Shown here one piece after another: positions 1,264-19,156 of a stretch of DNA of 64,000 bases. The position numbers and the translations under genes were made by a program. Origin of the DNA: Longimicrobiales bacterium (lineage in GTDB: Bacteria > Gemmatimonadota > Gemmatimonadetes > Longimicrobiales > Gaopeijiaceae); the NCBI GenBank assembly GCA_965221535.1, contig OZ244894.1:2609059-2673058 (forward strand). Reading direction: 5' to 3'. How positions within the stretch are numbered: the stretch's first letter is position 1; every line of letters begins with the position of its first letter. The notes under the pieces were generated by a model that made no database searches, was not told the origin of the DNA, and saw only the letters and a program-made list of their open reading frames with translations.

Positions 1264-1629
1264 TCAGCCGCCTCCCGTCCCGAAGACCGACGCCAGGATG
1301 TCCTGGTTGTAGCCCACCACGAAGGTGGCGCCGACCCGGAGGGCCGGGGCTCTCAGCTTGCCCCAGCGGCTCACCATCATGTCCACCAGCTCGCTGTCGG
1401 CGGGGCGGTCGCCGGCCGTCAGGTCCACCTCGACGACCTTCCTGCCCTTGGCCACCCGGAGCTCGGCGACACCGTCGAGCAGGGCCAGCGCCTCGTCCCT
1501 GGTCACCGGGTTCTTCGTCGCGCTCCTCGTTTCGGCCGCTTCGATTCCGTTCTGCGCAAGAAACTCCTGCGTGCGTTTGCAGCTGGTTCAGCCAGGGCGG
1601 TGGTAGCGCCACTCAAGCTTGCGGCTCAT
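1264..1629 (-). CDS. Spx/ArsC-family (YffB-like) thioredoxin-fold protein with in-frame TGA at 1588-1590, i.e. a candidate selenoprotein (UxxC active site)
   Basis: The ORF track shows only the C-terminal 80 aa (1264..1506), which start at GTG directly after a stop. In the same frame, ATG 1629..1627 (preceded by GGAGG at 1641..1637, 7-nt spacer) encodes MSRKLEWRYHRPG, then TGA (1590..1588), then TSCKRTQEFLAQNGIEAAETRSATKNP, then the 80-aa ORF. The joined 121-aa product aligns along its whole length to Spx/ArsC. YHRPG-U-TSCKR matches Y(T/H)SP(S/R)-C-TSCRK, so the TGA falls exactly on the first Cys of CxxC. The C-terminal GKLRAPALRVGATFVVGYNQD matches [21 protein letters not shown]. Confidence 0.6.
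1555..1571 (-). promoter_or_regulatory. Candidate SECIS-like hairpin 17-33 nt downstream of the in-frame UGA
   Basis: mRNA 5'-CGCAGG AGUUU CUUGCG-3' forms a 6-bp stem (one G·U) with a 5-nt apical loop containing G and U. Its distance from the UGA is compatible with bacterial SECIS spacing. Folded by eye only. Confidence 0.3.
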
Positions 1630-1673
1630 TGCTGGGCCTCCTTGCAAAGTAGACATGTCAACAGTGTCGGCGG

Positions 1674-2912
1674 CTAGCCACCGCTCACAACGAGCTCGCG
1701 GACCTCGACGCGCTCCACGCCGAGCTCGCCGTGGTGGGCGCCGATCGCCTGGCCCCCGGCGACCGCATGGAGCGCGAAGCCCGACGGCATCGCCACGTGG
1801 CCCAGGTGGCGCCCGTCGTCGGCGAACACGTCCCACCTGGCGGTCGCGGGGCCGCCGCGCACCCTGTAGCGGAGCGCCCAGAGCTGGCCGTCGTCCGCAA
1901 TGCGGAGGTCGGTGTACGCGGGCATGCGCTCGGGGAGCGACATCTCGCGGTACATCGCGACCATCTGCCGGATGGAGGCGTCGTCCGCGGCGGATGGGCC
2001 GCTGGTGCCGCGAACGTAGGCTTCGAGGTGCTCGTCGGTCAAGCGCTCCGGCGCTTCGTCGAGGCGCACGATCCGGCCGAGCCGGCCCGTCTGGTCGAAG
2101 ATTCCGACTTCGTACGCACGCCCCCCGGTCACGGCGGCGCCCCGATCCGATCCGGTCGCAGCAGGCTCCGGCGAGAAGGGAACGCGCAACAGCGAAATGC
2201 TGTTGCCGGAGGTCGACGCCGACATCATGAGGCCGGGGTGCTCGGCGAGCGTGTCGACGAGCGTCCCGTCGAGCCGGTACAGCATGAATTGCTCGGGAGG
2301 GCCGACGTCGCCCGCGAAGGCCTCCTCGACGCTCCGGATCGGGTTGTCGGTGGACGGCGGGGTGAGCGATCTGACCTTGCTGACGAAGGTCTCGGAGCCG
2401 ACCGGGCCGACCGGCGTCAGCATGTCCATGTCTCCCAGCCCCGACAGCGCCCCGGTTCCGAGAAGCGCGCCCTGCGAGTCGAACCGCGTCATCCGCTGGA
2501 GGCGCCTGTCGGCCGCCACGATTGCACCGTCGGCCGTCGGCCAGGCCCCGGCCAGCGCCTCGAACTCGCCGGGACCCTCTCCGCGGCCTCCGAACGAGCG
2601 CACGTGCGCGCCGTCGGCGTCGAAGATCCGGATCTCGCCTGCCCCGTTGTCGGCGACGACGAGGTTGCCCGCCCGGTCGCGCGCGACCGTGATGATTCCA
2701 GCGAACATAAGCTCTTCGGGGCCGTCCCGGACGCCGATCGACAGTGTGGGCTCCGGCGCGACCTCGGCGTAGACGGCGTCGCTGGCCGGGCTGGTGGTGA
2801 TGGCCACGCCCGCCGAGTCGACCGTCTCCACGCCCGTCGCGCCGCCGGGCGGTGCGGCGTCGCCGCAGCCGAGCAGCATGAGCGCCACGAGTCCCGGGCC
2901 GATTCGTCTCAT
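1674..2912 (-). CDS. Lipoprotein, six-bladed beta-propeller (NHL/TolB-like) hypothetical protein
   Basis: Sub-range of ORF 1674..3047. ATG at 2912 gives MRRIGPGLVALMLLGCGDAAPP (lipobox). Repeated blade motifs such as GRGEGPGEF. Confidence 0.75.
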   Translation of the reverse strand: MRRIGPGLVALMLLGCGDAAPPGGATGVETVDSAGVAITTSPASDAVYAEVAPEPTLSIGVRDGPEELMFAGIITVARDRAGNLVVADNGAGEIRIFDADGAHVRSFGGRGEGPGEFEALAGAWPTADGAIVAADRRLQRMTRFDSQGALLGTGALSGLGDMDMLTPVGPVGSETFVSKVRSLTPPSTDNPIRSVEEAFAGDVGPPEQFMLYRLDGTLVDTLAEHPGLMMSASTSGNSISLLRVPFSPEPAATGSDRGAAVTGGRAYEVGIFDQTGRLGRIVRLDEAPERLTDEHLEAYVRGTSGPSAADDASIRQMVAMYREMSLPERMPAYTDLRIADDGQLWALRYRVRGGPATARWDVFADDGRHLGHVAMPSGFALHAVAGGQAIGAHHGELGVERVEVRELVVSGG

Positions 2913-3034
2913 CTGTTGTGCCTTTCCGTCGGGGGGATTAAGCTCGCACCTTACTTTGGATGGCCCGTGCGGCGGCATTCGTTGCCCGTCCCACTCGGCC
3001 CCACCCCCGCAACCTACGCGAAAGGCAAGCTTCG

Positions 3035-3595
3035 ATGACCCAGGCAATCCAGCGCGACGCGCTCCCGCACAGCTCCCTCCGGCGCAGCTCAGTCCAGCGC
3101 AGCTCTTTCCGGCGCAGCCTCGCTTCGGCGTGCGTGGCGGTCGCCATTCTCTTCGTTTCGGCGGCGTGCGAGGGCGCGGGCGCCCCCGCAGCCGACCAGA
3201 TGCGCAGCGCGGGCCCGGTGGTCGAGTTCGTAAACCCGCGCTCGCCTGCGGACGGCGACGGCGTGACCCCCTTCAGCGGCGCGGCGTGGGTCGACAACAC
3301 GCTCTACCTGTCGGGCATGCTCGGTCTGGAGGGCGGCCAGGTTCCCGAGACCGCCGAGCAGGAGGCGGCCAACGTGCTCGACGCCATGAAGGCCGTGCTC
3401 GAGGGCGAGGGCCTCACCATGGACGATCTGGTCGTGGTGCAGGTGTACGCCTCCGACGTCGCCGACTACGGCGCCTTCAACAGCGTCTACCGCACGTACT
3501 TCACCAGCGAGTTCCCGGCGCGGGCGTTTCTGGGGTCGGGGCCGCTGCTGTTCGGCGCCCGCTTCGAGGTGATGGGGACGGCGGTCAGGCGGTAG
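3035..3595 (+). CDS. ridA: RidA/YjgF/TdcF family protein with N-terminal signal/lipoprotein sequence
   Basis: Sub-range of ORF 2960..3595. ATG at 3035 gives MTQAIQ...ACVAVAILFVSAAC. The C-terminal domain has a RidA-like fold (…VQVYASDVADYGAFNSVYRTYF…). Confidence 0.75.
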   Translation: MTQAIQRDALPHSSLRRSSVQRSSFRRSLASACVAVAILFVSAACEGAGAPAADQMRSAGPVVEFVNPRSPADGDGVTPFSGAAWVDNTLYLSGMLGLEGGQVPETAEQEAANVLDAMKAVLEGEGLTMDDLVVVQVYASDVADYGAFNSVYRTYFTSEFPARAFLGSGPLLFGARFEVMGTAVRR

Positions 3596-3652: not shown

Positions 3653-4933
3653 CTACCCCAGAATCACGCCCCGGAGCGCCCGCGCCCCCTGGACGGCGCG
3701 CTCGACGTGGGCGCGGGTGTTGTACACGTGCGGGCAGAGCCGCAGCCCGCCGGTCGTCGCACCGGCGATGCCGTGCTCTTCGTACAGCCGACGCCCCGCG
3801 GCGGCGCGGTCGCCGGGCGCCTCGACGATGCACACCCCGCCGGACAGCTCCGGCGCCATCGGGGTGACCAGGGTCAGGCCCAGCTCCGCAAGCCCCTCCT
3901 TGAGCGCGGTCGCCAGCTCGGCCACGCGCGCCTCGGTGGCCGCCGCGCCGATCGCGCCGTGGAGCTGGGCTGCGGTGCCGACCGCCGCCAGGCAGGCGTC
4001 GTCGCGCTGCCCCAGCGACTCGAACTTGCGCGCGCCGACCACGTCGGGCTCGGCGTCGTCGCCCCAGCCCGGCGCGACGACGTTGGGCCAGATCGCGGCG
4101 ATGCGGGATTCCCTGACGTAGAGCAGCCCCGCCTCCTTCGGGCCCATGAACCACTTGTGCGCAGAGGCGGTGTAGGAATCGCAGCCGAGGTCGCGAAGGT
4201 CGACGTCCAGCGCGCCCCAGCTCTGGGCGCCGTCAACGTGGACGTGGATGCCGCGGGGGCGCGCCGCGTCGGCGAGCTCGCGCACGGGCAGCCGGACGCC
4301 GCTGACGTTCGAGACGTGGGTGACCGACAGCACGCGGGTCCGGTCGGTCAGAGCCGCGACGAAGGGGTCGATCAGGTCCTGGGCCGAAGCCGGGCGGCGC
4401 GGGACGGCCACCCTCTTCACCACGATCCCGAACCTCGCCGCCCGCACGTCCCACGCCACGTTGTTGGTCGGGTGGTTCTGGTCCCACAGGACCACCTCGT
4501 CGCCCGCCGCGAGCGGCACGCCGTTGTTGATCGCGTTGTTGGCCTCGCTGGTGTTGCGGACGAGCGCGATCTCGTCGGGGGCGACGCCGAGCTGGGCCGC
4601 CACCGCCGCGCGGGACGCCTCGGTCAGGGTGCGGAACTTGGCGCGGTTGTTGAACGAGCAGTCGCGGTCGATGTCGCGGGTCAGCTCCTCGACGCGCGCC
4701 GCGACCGAACGGGGCGAGGGGCAGAGGTTGGCCGCGTTCATCGGCACGCGCTCCTCGGTGAACGAGAACTGCGCGCGGACCAGCTCCCACCACGCCTCGT
4801 CGCGGGCGGCGGCGGGGAGCGACGGGAGCGCGGGCGCGCGCCCCTCCCGGGGCGGCGACAGCACGGGCGGCAGGACGACGGCCCCGGCGGCCATCTCTGC
4901 GAGGAAGTTGCGGCGGCTGGTCTGGCGCTTCAT
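3653..4933 (-). CDS. Class V aminotransferase-fold PLP enzyme (cysteine desulfurase/isopenicillin-N-epimerase-like) with twin-arginine (Tat) signal
   Basis: Sub-range of ORF 3653..5080. ATG at 4933 gives MKRQTSRRNFLAEMAAGAVVLPP (Tat motif SRRNFLA). The PLP-lysine context is SAHKWFMGPKEAG. Confidence 0.8.
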   Translation of the reverse strand: MKRQTSRRNFLAEMAAGAVVLPPVLSPPREGRAPALPSLPAAARDEAWWELVRAQFSFTEERVPMNAANLCPSPRSVAARVEELTRDIDRDCSFNNRAKFRTLTEASRAAVAAQLGVAPDEIALVRNTSEANNAINNGVPLAAGDEVVLWDQNHPTNNVAWDVRAARFGIVVKRVAVPRRPASAQDLIDPFVAALTDRTRVLSVTHVSNVSGVRLPVRELADAARPRGIHVHVDGAQSWGALDVDLRDLGCDSYTASAHKWFMGPKEAGLLYVRESRIAAIWPNVVAPGWGDDAEPDVVGARKFESLGQRDDACLAAVGTAAQLHGAIGAAATEARVAELATALKEGLAELGLTLVTPMAPELSGGVCIVEAPGDRAAAGRRLYEEHGIAGATTGGLRLCPHVYNTRAHVERAVQGARALRGVILG

Positions 4934-5103
4934 GTGGCGACCTCCGGGTGGCGGCGGCGCGCCCGGGCGTCCGGACCCGCATCTGCGGGCGGTTTCCCGG
5001 CGCGCGGCTTGGCGGGCGGGCGGCTTGTGTTGATCATACTTGCGGCGCACCTTGCCTTGCCAGTCGCGCCCCACCGCCACTTCCCAAAAGCGAGCCGCCC
5101 GCC

Positions 5104-16391: not shown

Positions 16392-18671
16392 TCAGAAGCG
16401 AGAGGTTACGGTGATTCGGAGGCTGCGCGTGGCGCCGGGGTTGCGCTCCTGCACATCCACGTATTCGGCCTGAAGAAGGTTGGCGATCTTGGCCTGGATG
16501 TCCATGCCGCCGACCCGCGCGTTCGTGCGCAGATCGACCACCGTGACGTCGCCCCGGTCGTCGAGCGGAAAGGCCAGCACCTGGTCGGCGCGGCTTCGGT
16601 AGCGCATGTCGAGCGCGACCAGACCGGCCCAGCCCGAGAGCGTGGCGGTGACGTTGTGGGCCGACCTGTAGACCAGGGGCCGCTCGGTGATGTGGTCCCA
16701 TGCATCGAGGTAGAGGTAGGTGGCCTGCAGGTTGAGCTTCTCGGGCACCAGACCGACCCGCGCGCCCAGATCCAGCCCGCGGACCCTTGCCTCGGAGACG
16801 TTGCGGAACTGGAAGGTCACGATCTGGCCCGGCGCGCCGGACACCTCGATCAGCCCCTCGTACTCGCTCCAGAAGAGGCCGGCGTCGAACCACAGCCGGT
16901 TGGCGGGGCTGAACGTCGCGCCCACTTCGCCCGCCCACGCCGACTCGCCGCGAAGCTCGAGGTTGGGGACGACGCGGAAGCCGAACACCGTGGTGGAGCT
17001 GTACTGCTCGGCGACGCTGGGCGCGCGGTATCCCCGGCTGAGCGACGTGCGCAGGCTGAACCGCTCGGACGGCGAGAAGACGACGCCGACCTTGGGGTTG
17101 ACCGAGAGCTCGCGCTCCACCGCCGAGGCGCGGTGGCGGTCGATCCGGATCCCCACGGCGCCCCGCACGCGCTCGGAGAACGCGATCTCGTCCTGGACGT
17201 AGGCGGCCAGATCGGTCACCGTCGGGGTCGGCTCGAGGAAGTTAGACGAAATCGTGGTGTAGGCGGCCTCGGCGCCGGCTGTGAACGAGTGGGGGCCGTC
17301 GGTGAGCCGCGAGATCTGGAGGTCGGTGCCGTAGCGGGTGGAGCGGTGGAAGTCGTCGTTGTCGTGGAAGTGGTTCTGCGAGCGGATGTGGTAGAGCTGG
17401 GGCCGCAGCTGGACCTTCAGCAGCCGGGTCACGACGGGGTTGGCCGTCATGCCGACGACAAGGTCGGTGGAGCGGATCCAGTCGCCCAGCTGCACAGGCT
17501 GCACCTCGAGGCGGCGCTCGGGGGAGCGCCAGGTGAAGAACTCCTCGGCGTCGTCCCGCTTCCAGCTCAGGAAGAGCTCCAGCGGGCCCGGCGAATCCGC
17601 GCCGAAGACCGTCTTGGCCCGCACGCGCCACCGCTGCAGGCTGCCGTTCTGCCGGAAGCCGTCCGATCCCTCGCGCGCGACCATGACCGTCATGTCCGCG
17701 CCGCCCACCCGCCGCGCGTGCTGAATCTGCAGTCCCTGCATGTCGAGGCGCTCGTCGGTGAAGCTCGTCTCGACCGGCGTGTCGTACACGCCCCAGTAGC
17801 CTCGCACCACGGTTCGCGTGCCGTCGACCGGGGGGCGCGTGATCACGTTGACCACGCCGCCCATCGCATTGGTGCCGAACAGCGTCGAGTGCGGCCCCTT
17901 GACGATTTCGATTCGCTCGACATCGAGAACTGGAAGCATGCCGAAGTCGATGCCCGAACCAACCCCACCGAGGACGCGGTGTCCATCGACGAGCATCAGC
18001 ACGCGGCTGCCCACCCCGCGCGCGATTCCGCTCGACCCCCTTATGTCCATCTGGCCTGCGTTGAAGGTCACGCCCTGAGCGAAGGGAAGCGCCTGGTCGA
18101 GGCTGGTGACATCGCGGCGCTGGAGCTCGTCCCCGCTCACGACCGCCACGCTTACGGGCGCCTCGCCCGGCTGCGCATTGCCGCGGTTGGCCGTCACGGT
18201 GAGGCCCGGCACTTCGAGCAGCGCCCTCTCCAGGGCAATGGCGAGCGGGCCGGCCCCCGCCTCGAGCGGATCGACCGCGCGTTCCACCGTCGTGAACCCG
18301 GCCGCCGCCACGACCAGCTGGACCGCATCGCCGACGCTCGGCAGCTCGATCTCGAAGCCACCGTCCTCGCCCGTGTACGTGCGCAGCTGGGTGGAACGGA
18401 CCAGCACCTGCGCCCGAGCAACCGCCTCGCCCGATGCGGCCGCCACCACCCGGCCGCGGATCGTGGCGGTCTCCTGCGCGGGGGCGGGGGCGGCGGCGAG
18501 GGCGGCAGTGCCTGCGGCCGCGGCGGAAGTGGCCGCTGCGGCGGAAGTGGCGGCGGCCGCTGCGACGGGGAGGAACGGCATCGCGACCGCCGCCAGCACG
18601 GGGGCAGCGAGGCGGGCTCCCGGCTGCAACCCGCGTCGGCGCGCGATCGCCCGCAAAGCGCGTCGGCGCAT
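16392..18671 (-). CDS. TonB-dependent outer-membrane receptor (carboxypeptidase-regulatory-like N-domain + plug + barrel)
   Basis: ORF 16392..18689. Signal peptide, IRGRVV…, plug motifs (LDVERIEIVKGPHSTLFGTNAMGGVVNV), C-terminal …RITVTSRF. Confidence 0.85.
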   Translation of the reverse strand: MRRRALRAIARRRGLQPGARLAAPVLAAVAMPFLPVAAAAATSAAAATSAAAAGTAALAAAPAPAQETATIRGRVVAAASGEAVARAQVLVRSTQLRTYTGEDGGFEIELPSVGDAVQLVVAAAGFTTVERAVDPLEAGAGPLAIALERALLEVPGLTVTANRGNAQPGEAPVSVAVVSGDELQRRDVTSLDQALPFAQGVTFNAGQMDIRGSSGIARGVGSRVLMLVDGHRVLGGVGSGIDFGMLPVLDVERIEIVKGPHSTLFGTNAMGGVVNVITRPPVDGTRTVVRGYWGVYDTPVETSFTDERLDMQGLQIQHARRVGGADMTVMVAREGSDGFRQNGSLQRWRVRAKTVFGADSPGPLELFLSWKRDDAEEFFTWRSPERRLEVQPVQLGDWIRSTDLVVGMTANPVVTRLLKVQLRPQLYHIRSQNHFHDNDDFHRSTRYGTDLQISRLTDGPHSFTAGAEAAYTTISSNFLEPTPTVTDLAAYVQDEIAFSERVRGAVGIRIDRHRASAVERELSVNPKVGVVFSPSERFSLRTSLSRGYRAPSVAEQYSSTTVFGFRVVPNLELRGESAWAGEVGATFSPANRLWFDAGLFWSEYEGLIEVSGAPGQIVTFQFRNVSEARVRGLDLGARVGLVPEKLNLQATYLYLDAWDHITERPLVYRSAHNVTATLSGWAGLVALDMRYRSRADQVLAFPLDDRGDVTVVDLRTNARVGGMDIQAKIANLLQAEYVDVQERNPGATRSLRITVTSRF

Positions 18672-18673
18672 CG

Positions 18674-19156
18674 CTACTGCCGCTGCCACACGGTGGTCGA
18701 CGCGTTGAGCGCCGGCTCCGTCACCTCCACGGTCAGCACGTTGTTGACGAACTCGTATGTGCCGAGCGCCTGCACCAGATTCCCCGCCTGCTCCCAGGTC
18801 CCGTCGAAACGGACGGTGTAGGTGCCGGTGTCGACGATGTCCGTGGTTCCCCCAAGGCCGTCCGGGATGGTCAGGTCCATCGTCATCGTGCCCGAAGCCT
18901 CCTGCCCGACGGGCGCCGACTGCTGCAGCGTGAAGGTCCCGGTCGCGTCGGGGGGCGTCATGACCGCGCCGCCGGTCACCAGGGCCACGATCGAGACCAG
19001 CGTGTACGTCCCGGACAGGTCGGGCGGCGCTTCATCCGGCTCGACCGGGTCCTCGCCGCCCCCGCAGCCCATGGTCGGCGCCACCGCCGCCAGCGCCCAC
19101 ACGAGCCGCCGCACGCCTCGCCCAGACCTCAGAAAAGTCACGGTTCTGCCTCCCAT
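18674..19156 (-). CDS. Hypothetical lipoprotein (lipocalin-like size), immediately upstream of the TonB-dependent receptor
   Basis: ORF 18674..19156 with lipobox …APTMGCGGG. Only a 2-bp gap to the receptor start, so it is operonic. Confidence 0.6.
   Translation of the reverse strand: MGGRTVTFLRSGRGVRRLVWALAAVAPTMGCGGGEDPVEPDEAPPDLSGTYTLVSIVALVTGGAVMTPPDATGTFTLQQSAPVGQEASGTMTMDLTIPDGLGGTTDIVDTGTYTVRFDGTWEQAGNLVQALGTYEFVNNVLTVEVTEPALNASTTVWQRQ

What the first reader, a model, noticed from the sequence alone, without database searches (positions are those of the whole stretch)
1555..1571. Candidate bacterial SECIS-like hairpin 17-33 nt downstream of the UGA
The mRNA just 3' of the UGA can form CGCAGG-AGUUU-CUUGCG. 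This is a 6-bp stem with one G·U pair and a G/U-containing 5-nt apical loop. It could be extended by C15-G36 across a small internal loop. Its distance from the UGA is within the range tolerated by SelB-dependent decoding. I folded it by eye only.
Basis: seen in the sequence. Interest (0 to 1): 0.5.

Follow-up and report, generated by a model that had tools for sequence, protein, structure and literature searches.

The report
Conserved SECIS hairpin in ArsC-like selenoprotein
The small RNA hairpin just after an in-frame UGA in this gene is real, conserved across three bacterial phyla by compensating mutations, and is almost certainly the signal that tells the ribosome to insert selenocysteine there; the gene family is already catalogued as a selenoprotein, so this is solid but ordinary.

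Summary
In this one sequence it is not beyond chance. The region folds no better than shuffles, and 12% of all TGA triplets in the window have an equal or better SECIS-like hairpin.

Comparison decides it. All 80 orthologous loci (Gemmatimonadota, Acidobacteriota, Latescibacterota) plus 3 distant homologues keep the TGA inside WRYHRPG-U-xSC and keep the hairpin.
- 98.6% of stem cells pair.
- Two stem pairs switch among G-C/A-U/U-A and A-U/G-C/U-A, several times independently.
- They are the two top covarying column pairs in the alignment.
- The stem forces rare codons: TTT 95% against 5.5% background, CTT 88% against 8%.

The hairpin meets the published bacterial SECIS model: 7-bp stem, A-GUU-U apex, 23 nt from the UGA. 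TGA is also the ordinary stop in half of these genes.

The gene scores above cutoff for NCBIfam NF041106, "ArsC family (seleno)protein", which is listed in selenoprotein catalogues.

Verdict: a genuine SECIS element, a new member of a known kind. SelB binding is inferred, not shown.

The parts
1264..1629 (-). ArsC/Spx-like selenoprotein gene. It encodes 121 aa including Sec14, with ATG at 1629..1627 and the terminal TGA at 1266..1264. The redox motif is U-T-S-C.
   Evidence: Translation. NCBIfam NF041106 'ArsC family (seleno)protein' scores 111.2 bits against a cutoff of 85. The N-terminal WRYHRPG upstream of the TGA is conserved in all 80 orthologues. Public gene calls are truncated to 80 aa (P0002).
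1637..1643 (-). Shine-Dalgarno-like AAGGAGG, 7 nt upstream of the ATG
   Evidence: Read directly from the sequence. It supports translation starting 13 codons upstream of the UGA.
1588..1590 (-). In-frame UGA, the proposed Sec codon (codon 14)
   Evidence: TGA in 81 of 81 genes (80 orthologues plus the window) at this position. It aligns with Cys in rare Cys forms. TGA is also the ordinary terminal stop in 41 of 81 of the same genes.
1572..1587 (-). 16-nt spacer between the UGA and the stem (ACC AGC UGC AAA CGC A). It contains the resolving Cys codon at 1581..1579 and an unusually frequent AAA Lys codon at 1578..1576.
   Evidence: The alignment is gapless, so spacer length is invariant. AAA is used in 58% against 10% background. 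No pairing partner was found.
1565..1571 (-). SECIS stem, 5' arm CGCAGGA
   Evidence: Alignment columns 32-38.
1562..1564 (-). SECIS apical loop GUU, closed by A1565-U1561. The G and first U are the presumed SelB contact.
   Evidence: G39, U40 and U41 are invariant in 80 sequences. GAG is used 81/81 and TTT 77/81 against 5.5% background.
1555..1561 (-). SECIS stem, 3' arm UCUUGCG
   Evidence: Alignment columns 42-48. CTT is used 71/81 against 8.1% background.
1580..1594 (-). Possible 5-bp mini-helix that embeds the UGA (UGGCU / AGCUG). This is tentative.
   Evidence: RNAalifold predicts it. It is 97% pairable, but only through one-sided wobble changes. Pro -2 avoids CCG (5% against 55%) and Ser +2 is always AGY. 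Both preferences are lost in the older non-Sec forms L085 and L093/L105.

Best explanation
The hairpin at 1571..1555 (minus strand) is the selenocysteine insertion sequence (SECIS) of an ArsC/Spx-like thioredoxin-fold selenoprotein with a U-x-x-C redox motif.

Proposed mechanism, inferred by analogy with characterised bacterial systems. While the mRNA is translated, the 7-bp stem with its A-GUU-U apex sits just outside the ribosome's mRNA entrance when UGA 1590..1588 reaches the A site. The C-terminal winged-helix domains of SelB bind the apical G/U of the hairpin. SelB then delivers Sec-tRNA(Sec) to the UGA, so Sec is inserted instead of RF2 terminating. The ribosome then melts the hairpin and reads it as T-Q-E-F-L-A.

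Shown here: the structure exists, it is maintained by selection on RNA pairing independent of the protein sequence, it sits at a fixed distance from a universally conserved in-frame UGA, and it fits the consensus bacterial SECIS model.

Inferred: SelB binding and actual Sec incorporation.
For: 1. All 80 orthologous loci from three phyla plus the window have TGA within a conserved WRYHRPG-U-xSCKRTQEFLA. Distant homologues at 41-47% identity also keep the TGA and the same hairpin.

2. On the 80-sequence alignment, 98.6% of stem cells pair. There are 23 cells with changes on both sides against 2.4 in shuffles (0/500 shuffles reach this), and slid-partner controls give 31-71% paired.

3. Pair 33-47 is GC:64, AU:7, UA:6. 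Pair 35-45 is AU:69, GC:9, UA:1, GU:1. RNAalifold recovers the helix without being given it. An unbiased mutual-information scan ranks these two pairs first and second of all column pairs.

4. Parsimony on a tree built from the rest of the protein indicates about 7-8 independent state changes per pair.

5. Synonymous sites are constrained. TTT is 77/81 against 5.5% elsewhere in the same genes. CTT is 71/81 against 8.1%. GCG is 65/66 and GAG 81/81. ACT (2.5% background) occurs only when its partner codon is GAG. Excess codon surprisal is confined to the element.

6. It fits the bSECIS model: loop 3-9 nt, stem 4-16 bp, G then U at the start of the loop, 16-37 nt spacing (PMC13188914). It also fits the description of a 6-8 bp stem with a conserved loop G about 20 nt after the UGA (PMC4605307).

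7. TGA is the normal stop in 41/81 of the same genes, so the genetic code is not reassigned.

8. The protein exceeds the curated cutoff of NF041106 'ArsC family (seleno)protein'. That family is listed as a UxxC selenoprotein in PMC13188914, in PMC9312934 and, as 'Arsenate reductase 2', in PMC2398784.

9. An older Cys form (L093/L105, TGC) has an uncompensated CTT-to-CTC change that puts an A.C mismatch in the middle of the stem.

10. One orthologue-bearing MAG has SelA, SelB and SelD by COG annotation: bin94, the source of L013 (PMC5649159 Table S4).
Against: There is no direct evidence of SelB binding or Sec incorporation.

The window contains no selA, selB, selD or tRNA-Sec, so the machinery is not demonstrated for this particular genome.

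Thermodynamics are unremarkable. The bare hairpin is -7.1 kcal/mol, just above the -7.5 limit of the bSECIS model. Folding is no better than shuffles, and pair probability is 0.41 in one context.

Two non-Sec variants keep an intact hairpin with its rare codons: L081 (TGT) and L085 (GGT). Retention is therefore not strictly tied to the UGA, although both could be recent losses.

Some covarying changes also alter amino acids (Q/A to R/E). That could partly reflect protein-level coevolution, although the accompanying synonymous changes cannot.

No Rfam SECIS family matches.
Confidence: 0.88

Rival explanations
1. The hairpin is a conserved RNA structure with a role unrelated to Sec decoding, for example translational pausing for co-translational folding, mRNA stability, or binding of some other factor. 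It only happens to lie near the UGA.
For: Two non-Sec variants keep the intact hairpin and its rare TTT/CTT(A) codons: L081 (TGT) and L085 (GGT). In L085 the codons flanking the former UGA have already drifted (CCG, TCG), which suggests the loss is not very recent.
Against: The distance to the UGA is invariant in more than 80 genes. The geometry and the G-U apex match the bacterial SECIS consensus. An older Cys form has an uncompensated break in the stem. Non-Sec forms are so rare (3 lineages) that recent loss is a sufficient explanation.
Confidence: 0.07
2. The hairpin is a chance structure. The nucleotide conservation only reflects the conserved peptide T-Q-E-F-L-A plus codon bias.
For: In the single sequence, the fold is no better than shuffles, and 12% of TGA triplets in the window have an equal or better hairpin. 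The arms lie in a strongly conserved helix of the protein.
Against: The codons used are the rare ones in these GC-rich genes (TTT 5.5% and CTT 8.1% background), yet they are nearly fixed here. Synonymous third positions covary with their pairing partners (ACT with GAG, CTC with CGR, CTA with CTG). The stem pairs top an unbiased mutual-information scan.
Confidence: 0.02
3. The UGA is not Sec. Either the organisms use a reassigned code (UGA = Gly or Trp), or the UGA is read through by a near-cognate tRNA with the hairpin acting as a generic read-through stimulator, or the gene is a pseudogene.
For: Some database translations show W at this position (P0026), which comes from TGA read with another code. 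One relative has a genuine Gly codon there (L085).
Against: TGA is the ordinary terminal stop in 41/81 of the same genes. The position aligns with the N-terminal Cys of a CxxC/UxxC redox motif and with Cys in rare homologues. The family is curated as a selenoprotein. Conservation of both halves of the ORF in 80+ genomes excludes a pseudogene. SelA, SelB and SelD are present in an orthologue-bearing MAG.
Confidence: 0.03

Closest known systems
Consensus bacterial SECIS (bSECISearch model of Zhang & Gladyshev, as summarised in PMC13188914 Fig. 2A)
   Same: A stem-loop inside the coding region, immediately 3' of the Sec-UGA. It has a small apical loop (3 nt, or 5 nt if the closing A-U pair is open) on a 7-bp upper stem. 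G followed by U occupies the first loop positions, so A-G-U-U-U fits N1-G-[G|U]-N-N2 with N1 and N2 pairing. There are 23 nt between the UGA and the loop, within the 16-37 nt range.
   Different: The bare hairpin is -7.1 kcal/mol, marginally weaker than the model's -7.5 limit. No conserved lower stem was found. Instead there may be a separate 5-bp mini-helix embedding the UGA, with an A-rich unpaired spacer.
E. coli fdhF/fdnG SECIS and the Moorella thermoacetica SelB-SECIS complex (from my own knowledge of the literature; the general description is cited from PMC4605307)
   Same: It is presumed to work the same way: SelB's C-terminal winged-helix domains recognise the exposed G/U of the apical loop of a 6-8 bp hairpin about 20 nt after the UGA, tethering Sec-tRNA(Sec) to the ribosome.
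   Different: There is no bulged U in the upper stem. The loop is GUU rather than a GGUC-type loop. The loop G lies a few nucleotides further from the UGA. There is no sequence similarity, and no Rfam SECIS model matches.
NCBIfam NF041106 'ArsC family (seleno)protein', also listed as 'Arsenate reductase-like protein, UxxC' (PMC13188914, PMC9312934) and 'Arsenate reductase 2, UxxC' in the GOS selenoproteome (PMC2398784)
   Same: The host gene scores 111.2 bits against a cutoff of 85, has the UxxC motif, and has the same length and architecture.
   Different: Nothing material. This is a member from a Gemmatimonadota-type genome. In public records the window's gene is called only as an 80-aa C-terminal fragment (P0002).
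Spx/MgsR regulators and glutaredoxin-coupled ArsC (PDB 3l78, 1z3e, 1i9d)
   Same: A remote thioredoxin-like fold relative, with an N-terminal redox motif at the equivalent position.
   Different: Below the family cutoffs (TIGR01617 34.9 against 75; PF03960 22.5 against 24). It has Sec instead of Cys, and its biochemical function has not been established.

Membership tests
Bacterial SECIS consensus model (bSECISearch) | 3-9 nt apical loop on a 4-16 bp upper stem | tested here: met
   7-bp stem with a 3-nt loop, or 6 bp with a 5-nt loop. 98.6% of stem cells pair across 80 sequences.
Bacterial SECIS consensus model (bSECISearch) | At least one G in the first two loop positions, typically N1-G-[G|U]-N-N2 with N1 and N2 pairing | tested here: met
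   The apex is A-G-U-U-U. G39, U40 and U41 are invariant, and A38-U42 pairs in 76/80. Criterion taken from PMC13188914.
Bacterial SECIS consensus model (bSECISearch) | [quoted passage not shown] | tested here: met
   23 nt (16-nt spacer plus 7-nt arm). This is invariant because the alignment is gapless.
Bacterial SECIS consensus model (bSECISearch) | MFE of -7.5 kcal/mol or lower | tested here: inconclusive
   The bare 17-nt hairpin is -7.1 kcal/mol in the window. The mean over 85 sequences is -6.97, and only 7 reach -7.5. The 61-nt context folds at -13.8 with extra, non-conserved pairs. The result depends on how much flank the criterion is applied to.
Bacterial SECIS (functional definition) | Lies directly 3' of an in-frame UGA that aligns with Cys in homologues | tested here: met
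   TGA in 81/81 genes. Cys is found at the same position in L081 and in L093/L105. The position is the first residue of a UxxC motif.
Bacterial SECIS (functional definition) | Structure conserved by covariation among orthologues | tested here: met
   Two pairs show three Watson-Crick types each, arising in several independent events.
Bacterial SECIS (functional definition) | Binds SelB and directs Sec insertion | not testable with these tools
   Needs EMSA or reporter assays, 75Se labelling or mass spectrometry.
Bacterial SECIS (functional definition) | Genome encodes selA, selB, selD and tRNA-Sec | tested here: inconclusive
   None are in the 64-kb window or within 6 kb of the orthologues (first 60 loci scanned, for tRNAs only). 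For orthologue-bearing MAG bin94 (source of L013), published COG counts give SelA 1, SelB 1, SelD 1. For bin61 (source of L053) they give SelA 2, SelB 1, SelD 0 (PMC5649159 Table S4). The window's own genome could not be searched.
Rfam SECIS families | Covariance-model match at the gathering score | tested here: not met
   No match at gathering thresholds over the whole window. No SECIS family matches at E <= 10 on 1480..1660.
NCBIfam NF041106 ArsC family (seleno)protein (host gene) | HMM score at or above the curated cutoff of 85 bits | tested here: met
   111.2 bits, E = 3.4e-32, covering residues 5-111 of the protein and positions 1-106 of the 107-position profile.
NCBIfam NF041106 ArsC family (seleno)protein (host gene) | UxxC (or CxxC) motif near the N-terminus | tested here: met
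   G-U-T-S-C at residues 13-17, conserved in the orthologues.
Spx/MgsR (TIGR01617) and Pfam ArsC (PF03960) | HMM score at or above the curated cutoff | tested here: not met
   TIGR01617 34.9 against 75.05. PF03960 22.5 against 24. This is a remote relative only.

The most novel reading that the evidence does not exclude
The Sec-recoding signal of this family may have more than one part. Besides the SelB-type hairpin, there may be a 5-bp mini-helix that embeds the UGA itself (1594..1580), and a constrained A-rich spacer (AAA Lys at +4). Both are under synonymous-site selection, and the flanking-codon preferences disappear in the lineages that lost the UGA. Alternatively, the main hairpin may have a second, Sec-independent role, since it persists in two non-Sec variants. 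Either would mean that local context elements beyond the classical SECIS tune UGA recoding against termination in these phyla.
Probability: 0.12. Interest if true: 0.5.

Novelty: new member of a known kind. Interest (0 to 1): 0.27.

Why it matters
The finding confirms that the 80-aa "hypothetical protein" called in public records is the C-terminal fragment of a 121-aa selenoprotein, and most of its relatives' gene calls (68-80 aa) look truncated in the same way. Annotation of this gene across Gemmatimonadota, Acidobacteriota and Latescibacterota should therefore be corrected.

It also provides an unusually clean bacterial SECIS supported by covariation: 17 nt, with an A-GUU-U apex, nearly invariant across three phyla. 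Bacterial SECIS elements are otherwise regarded as heterogeneous and hard to model (PMC12013277, PMC13188914). Such an element could seed a covariance model, and could serve as a compact test substrate for SelB from poorly studied phyla. It does not change what is known about how Sec decoding works.

Tried and rejected
1. The search for related loci with the 16-sequence alignment A1 failed because no stretch was conserved enough. The 8-sequence A2 worked.

3. I assumed the 'G' in P0001 was TGA translated with code 25. That was wrong: the contig has a genuine GGT. The 'W' in P0026 is indeed TGA.

4. P0009 (Cys, TGT) was intended as a negative control, but it still carries the intact hairpin. 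It is the only Cys-coded (TGT) member of its 90% cluster, so it is uninformative, being either a recent change or an error.

5. The metagenome pattern scan for non-TGA forms gave 20 hits. Eighteen were unrelated (15 copies of one recurring sequence, most of them from contigs labelled human gut), and only L093/L105 were real.

6. A search of about 0.95 Mb (window plus loci) for other in-frame TGA sites followed by a hairpin with a GUU loop found only 3 wrong-frame artefacts. It therefore gave no independent SECIS examples from the same genomes.

7. tRNA scans of the window and of 60 loci found nothing.

9. The outer helix in the window's 61-nt MFE fold is not conserved; RNAalifold does not recover it.

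10. No pairing partner was found for the AAA codon bias.

Full report
**1. What is in the sequence**

On the minus strand a gene starts at ATG 1629..1627, preceded by AAGGAGG at 1643..1637. It runs to a terminal TGA at 1266..1264 and contains one in-frame TGA at 1590..1588, which is codon 14. Read through, it encodes 121 aa: MSRKLEWRYHRPG-U-TSCKRTQEFLAQNG...

The 5' arm is CGCAGG(A), the apex is (A)GUU(U) and the 3' arm is (U)CUUGCG, starting at the 17th nt after the UGA. ViennaRNA adds the A-U closing pair, giving 7 bp with a GUU triloop, and places the hairpin in the MFE fold of the 61-nt and 141-nt contexts.

**2. Is it more than chance in this one sequence? No.**

- The region folds no better than dinucleotide shuffles (z = +0.44 and +1.19).
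- The bare hairpin is -7.1 kcal/mol, and in a 63-nt context its mean pair probability is only 0.41.
- Of the 1052 TGA triplets in this 71% GC window, 23% are followed by some hairpin meeting the bSECIS geometry, and 12% by one at least as stable.

**3. The host gene**

With Cys substituted for U, the protein scores 111.2 bits against NCBIfam NF041106, "ArsC family (seleno)protein", whose cutoff is 85. It scores only sub-threshold against Spx/MgsR, ArsC and glutaredoxin models. The nearest solved structures are Spx (3l78, E = 1e-5) and R773 ArsC.

A search of 5.8 billion proteins returned 115 relatives. Most are 68-80 aa fragments that begin after the UGA position, or begin "MSCK..." at the codon right after it. 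That is the signature of gene callers stopping at an in-frame TGA. The window's own gene appears in public data only as an 80-aa fragment (P0002).

**4. Orthologues**

A scan of one genome per GTDB species returned 153 relatives, of which 80 loci were kept. They come from Gemmatimonadota (mostly Longimicrobiales), Acidobacteriota (Vicinamibacteria and "Marinacidobacterium") and Latescibacterota.

All 80, plus the window, have TGA at the same position within W-R-Y-H-R-P-G-TGA-x-S/G-C-K-R-T-Q-E-F-L-A. Three more distant metagenomic homologues (41-47% identity, locus GC 57-69%) also keep the TGA and the same hairpin sequence. In the same 81 genes the terminal stop is TGA in 41, TAG in 36 and TAA in 4. 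UGA is therefore a normal stop in these organisms and the internal one must be recoded by local context.

**5. Structure conservation**

The 84-column alignment around the UGA is gapless. For the 7-bp helix:

- 98.6% of 560 cells form a standard pair.
- 23 cells carry changes on both sides, against 2.4 +/- 1.4 in shuffles (0/500 reach the observed value).
- Sliding the 3' partner by 1-3 columns drops pairing to 31-71%.
- Pair 33-47 is G-C in 64, A-U in 7 and U-A in 6 sequences.
- Pair 35-45 is A-U in 69, G-C in 9, U-A in 1 and G-U in 1.
- Pair 36-44 alternates G-U and A-U.

RNAalifold predicts the same helix without being given it. An unbiased APC-corrected mutual-information scan ranks 33-47 and 35-45 first and second of all column pairs. 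The next-ranked pairs are not complementary and look like clade-level signals. Fitch parsimony on a neighbour-joining tree built from the rest of the protein suggests about 7 and 8 independent changes of state for the two pairs. The tree is noisy because it rests on about 100 aa, but the U-A/G-C variant sits in three separate places.

**6. Separating RNA constraint from protein constraint**

The arms lie in codons T-Q-E-F-L-A, and some covarying changes alter amino acids (Q...A to R...E, T...A to A...V). Protein coevolution could therefore contribute. The synonymous positions cannot be explained that way.

- Thr ACG becomes ACT (2.5% background) only when the partner Ala GCG becomes Glu GAG.
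- Leu CTT becomes CTC when Gln CAR becomes Arg CGR, and becomes CTA when Gln becomes Leu CTG.
- The stem imposes codons that are rare in these genes, whose GC3 is 0.86. Phe TTT is 77/81 against 5.5% elsewhere in the same genes. Leu CTT is 71/81 against 8.1%. GCG is 65/66 against 44%, and GAG 81/81 against 67%.
- A codon-by-codon surprisal profile from -9 to +30 is flat, except at +9 (3.6 bits), +10 (1.6), +4 (1.8) and -2 (1.0).

**7. Fit to the known model**

The published bacterial SECIS model requires four things (PMC13188914 Fig. 2A): a 3-9 nt loop on a 4-16 bp stem; a G in the first two loop positions, typically as N1-G-[G|U]-N-N2; 16-37 nt between the UGA and the loop; and an MFE of -7.5 kcal/mol or lower.

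Here the stem is 7 bp, the apex is A-G-U-U-U and the spacing is 23 nt, so the first three are met. The energy criterion is borderline: -7.1 for the bare hairpin.

PMC4605307 describes bacterial SECIS hairpins as 6-8 bp stems with a conserved loop G about 20 nt after the UGA, bound by SelB WHD3/4 near the mRNA entrance. No Rfam family matches. That is unsurprising given how heterogeneous bacterial SECIS elements are (PMC12013277).

**8. Controls with non-Sec forms**

These are very rare. Three lineages were found.

- **L081 (P0009, TGT):** it keeps an intact hairpin, in the CTG/CTA variant. It is the only Cys-coded (TGT) member of its 90% cluster, so it is either a very recent change or an error.
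- **L085 (P0001):** it has a genuine GGT Gly codon, keeps the main hairpin, and has Pro CCG and Ser TCG next to the former UGA.
- **L093/L105 (TGC):** it has an uncompensated CTT-to-CTC change that puts an A.C mismatch in the centre of the stem. It also has CCG, GGA and TCC around the Cys codon.

So one of two older non-Sec lineages shows the decay a SECIS model predicts, and one does not. The sample is too small to be decisive, and I list it as the main evidence against.

**9. Sec machinery**

The window has no tRNA and no selA, selB or selD. Its genes are ordinary: an NHL/beta-propeller protein, a RidA-family protein, PLP enzymes, an RND pump, TonB receptors, pstSCAB, a PQQ dehydrogenase and others. 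The first 60 orthologue loci, each with up to 6 kb of flank, hold no tRNA either.

Published COG tables for two MAGs that carry orthologues give the following counts (PMC5649159 Table S4):

| MAG | Phylum | Locus | SelA | SelB | SelD |
|---|---|---|---|---|---|
| bin94 (MPNE) | Gemmatimonadetes | L013 | 1 | 1 | 1 |
| bin61 (MPMW) | Acidobacteria | L053 | 2 | 1 | 0 |

The window's own genome could not be searched.

**10. Secondary features**

RNAalifold also draws a 5-bp helix that embeds the UGA, at 1594..1590 with 1584..1580. It is 97% pairable but only through one-sided wobble changes. Codon bias is consistent with it: Pro -2 is CCY in 77/81 (CCG 5% against 55% background), and Ser +2 is always AGY. 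Both preferences are absent in L085 and L093/L105. This is suggestive only.

Lys +4 is AAA in 58% against 10% background, with no identifiable pairing partner. That remains unexplained.

**11. Verdict**

The hairpin is a genuine, selected RNA structure (confidence about 0.95) and most likely the SECIS of a known ArsC-like UxxC selenoprotein family (confidence about 0.88). The family is already catalogued (NF041106; PMC2398784, PMC9312934, PMC13188914) and the mechanism is the standard bacterial one. It is therefore a new, well-supported member of a known kind rather than a discovery. Its practical value lies in correcting gene annotation, and in offering a clean SECIS example supported by covariation from under-studied phyla.

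Noticed in passing
window 1580..1594 (-): There is a possible 5-bp mini-helix (UGGCU/AGCUG) with the UGA's U paired and its GA in the loop. It is 97% pairable in 80 orthologues, but only through wobble-type changes. Pro -2 avoids CCG (5% against 55% background) and Ser +2 is always AGY. Both preferences are lost in the non-Sec forms L085 and L093/L105.
   Followed up: partly
window 1576..1578 (-): The Lys codon at +4 after the UGA is AAA in 58% of orthologues, against 10% AAA elsewhere in the same genes (1.8 bits excess). The mutual-information scan found no pairing partner. The reason is unknown.
   Followed up: partly
L081 68-415; L085 488-892; L093 and L105: Rare non-Sec variants of the family exist. 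L081 has TGT (Cys) with an intact hairpin. L085 has GGT (Gly) with an intact hairpin. L093/L105 have TGC (Cys) with an A.C mismatch in the stem. The first two look like leftover ('fossil') SECIS elements.
   Followed up: partly
window 1264..1506 (-) and most hits: Public gene calls for this family are almost all truncated to 68-80 aa, or start at 'MSCK...', because callers stop at the Sec-UGA. The window's gene is on record only as the 80-aa fragment P0002. A few translations show W at the Sec position because TGA was read with another genetic code (P0026).
   Followed up: yes
window 1674..3047 (-): The upstream gene encodes a 457-aa NHL/beta-propeller-like protein ending ...GVERVEVRELVVSGG. 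The same C-terminal motif sits immediately upstream of the orthologue in several loci labelled Longimicrobiales or Gemmatimonadetes (for example L004, L016, L018, L021, L023, L027), so the gene pair is syntenic.
   Followed up: no
window 2960..3595 (+); L081 506-886: A RidA/YjgF-family gene lies about 1.3 kb from the selenoprotein gene in the window. A RidA-family gene (PF01042) also directly follows the Cys-form homologue in L081. This may be coincidence.
   Followed up: no
window 3653..5080 (-): A 475-aa class-V PLP enzyme (PvdN/SufS-like) has an arginine-rich N-terminal region that could be a signal peptide (not tested). Among many sub-threshold hits it weakly matches the selenocysteine lyase SclA model (61 bits against a cutoff of 525). 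This is far too weak to infer a link to selenium.
   Followed up: no
window 16392..18689 (-): A TonB-dependent receptor gives weak partial hits (about 35-42 bits against cutoffs of 800-850) to NCBIfam models of Sec-motif TonB receptors (FCYXU, PCPU and PUIUD types). This is probably generic plug-domain similarity, and the ORF has no internal TGA.
   Followed up: no
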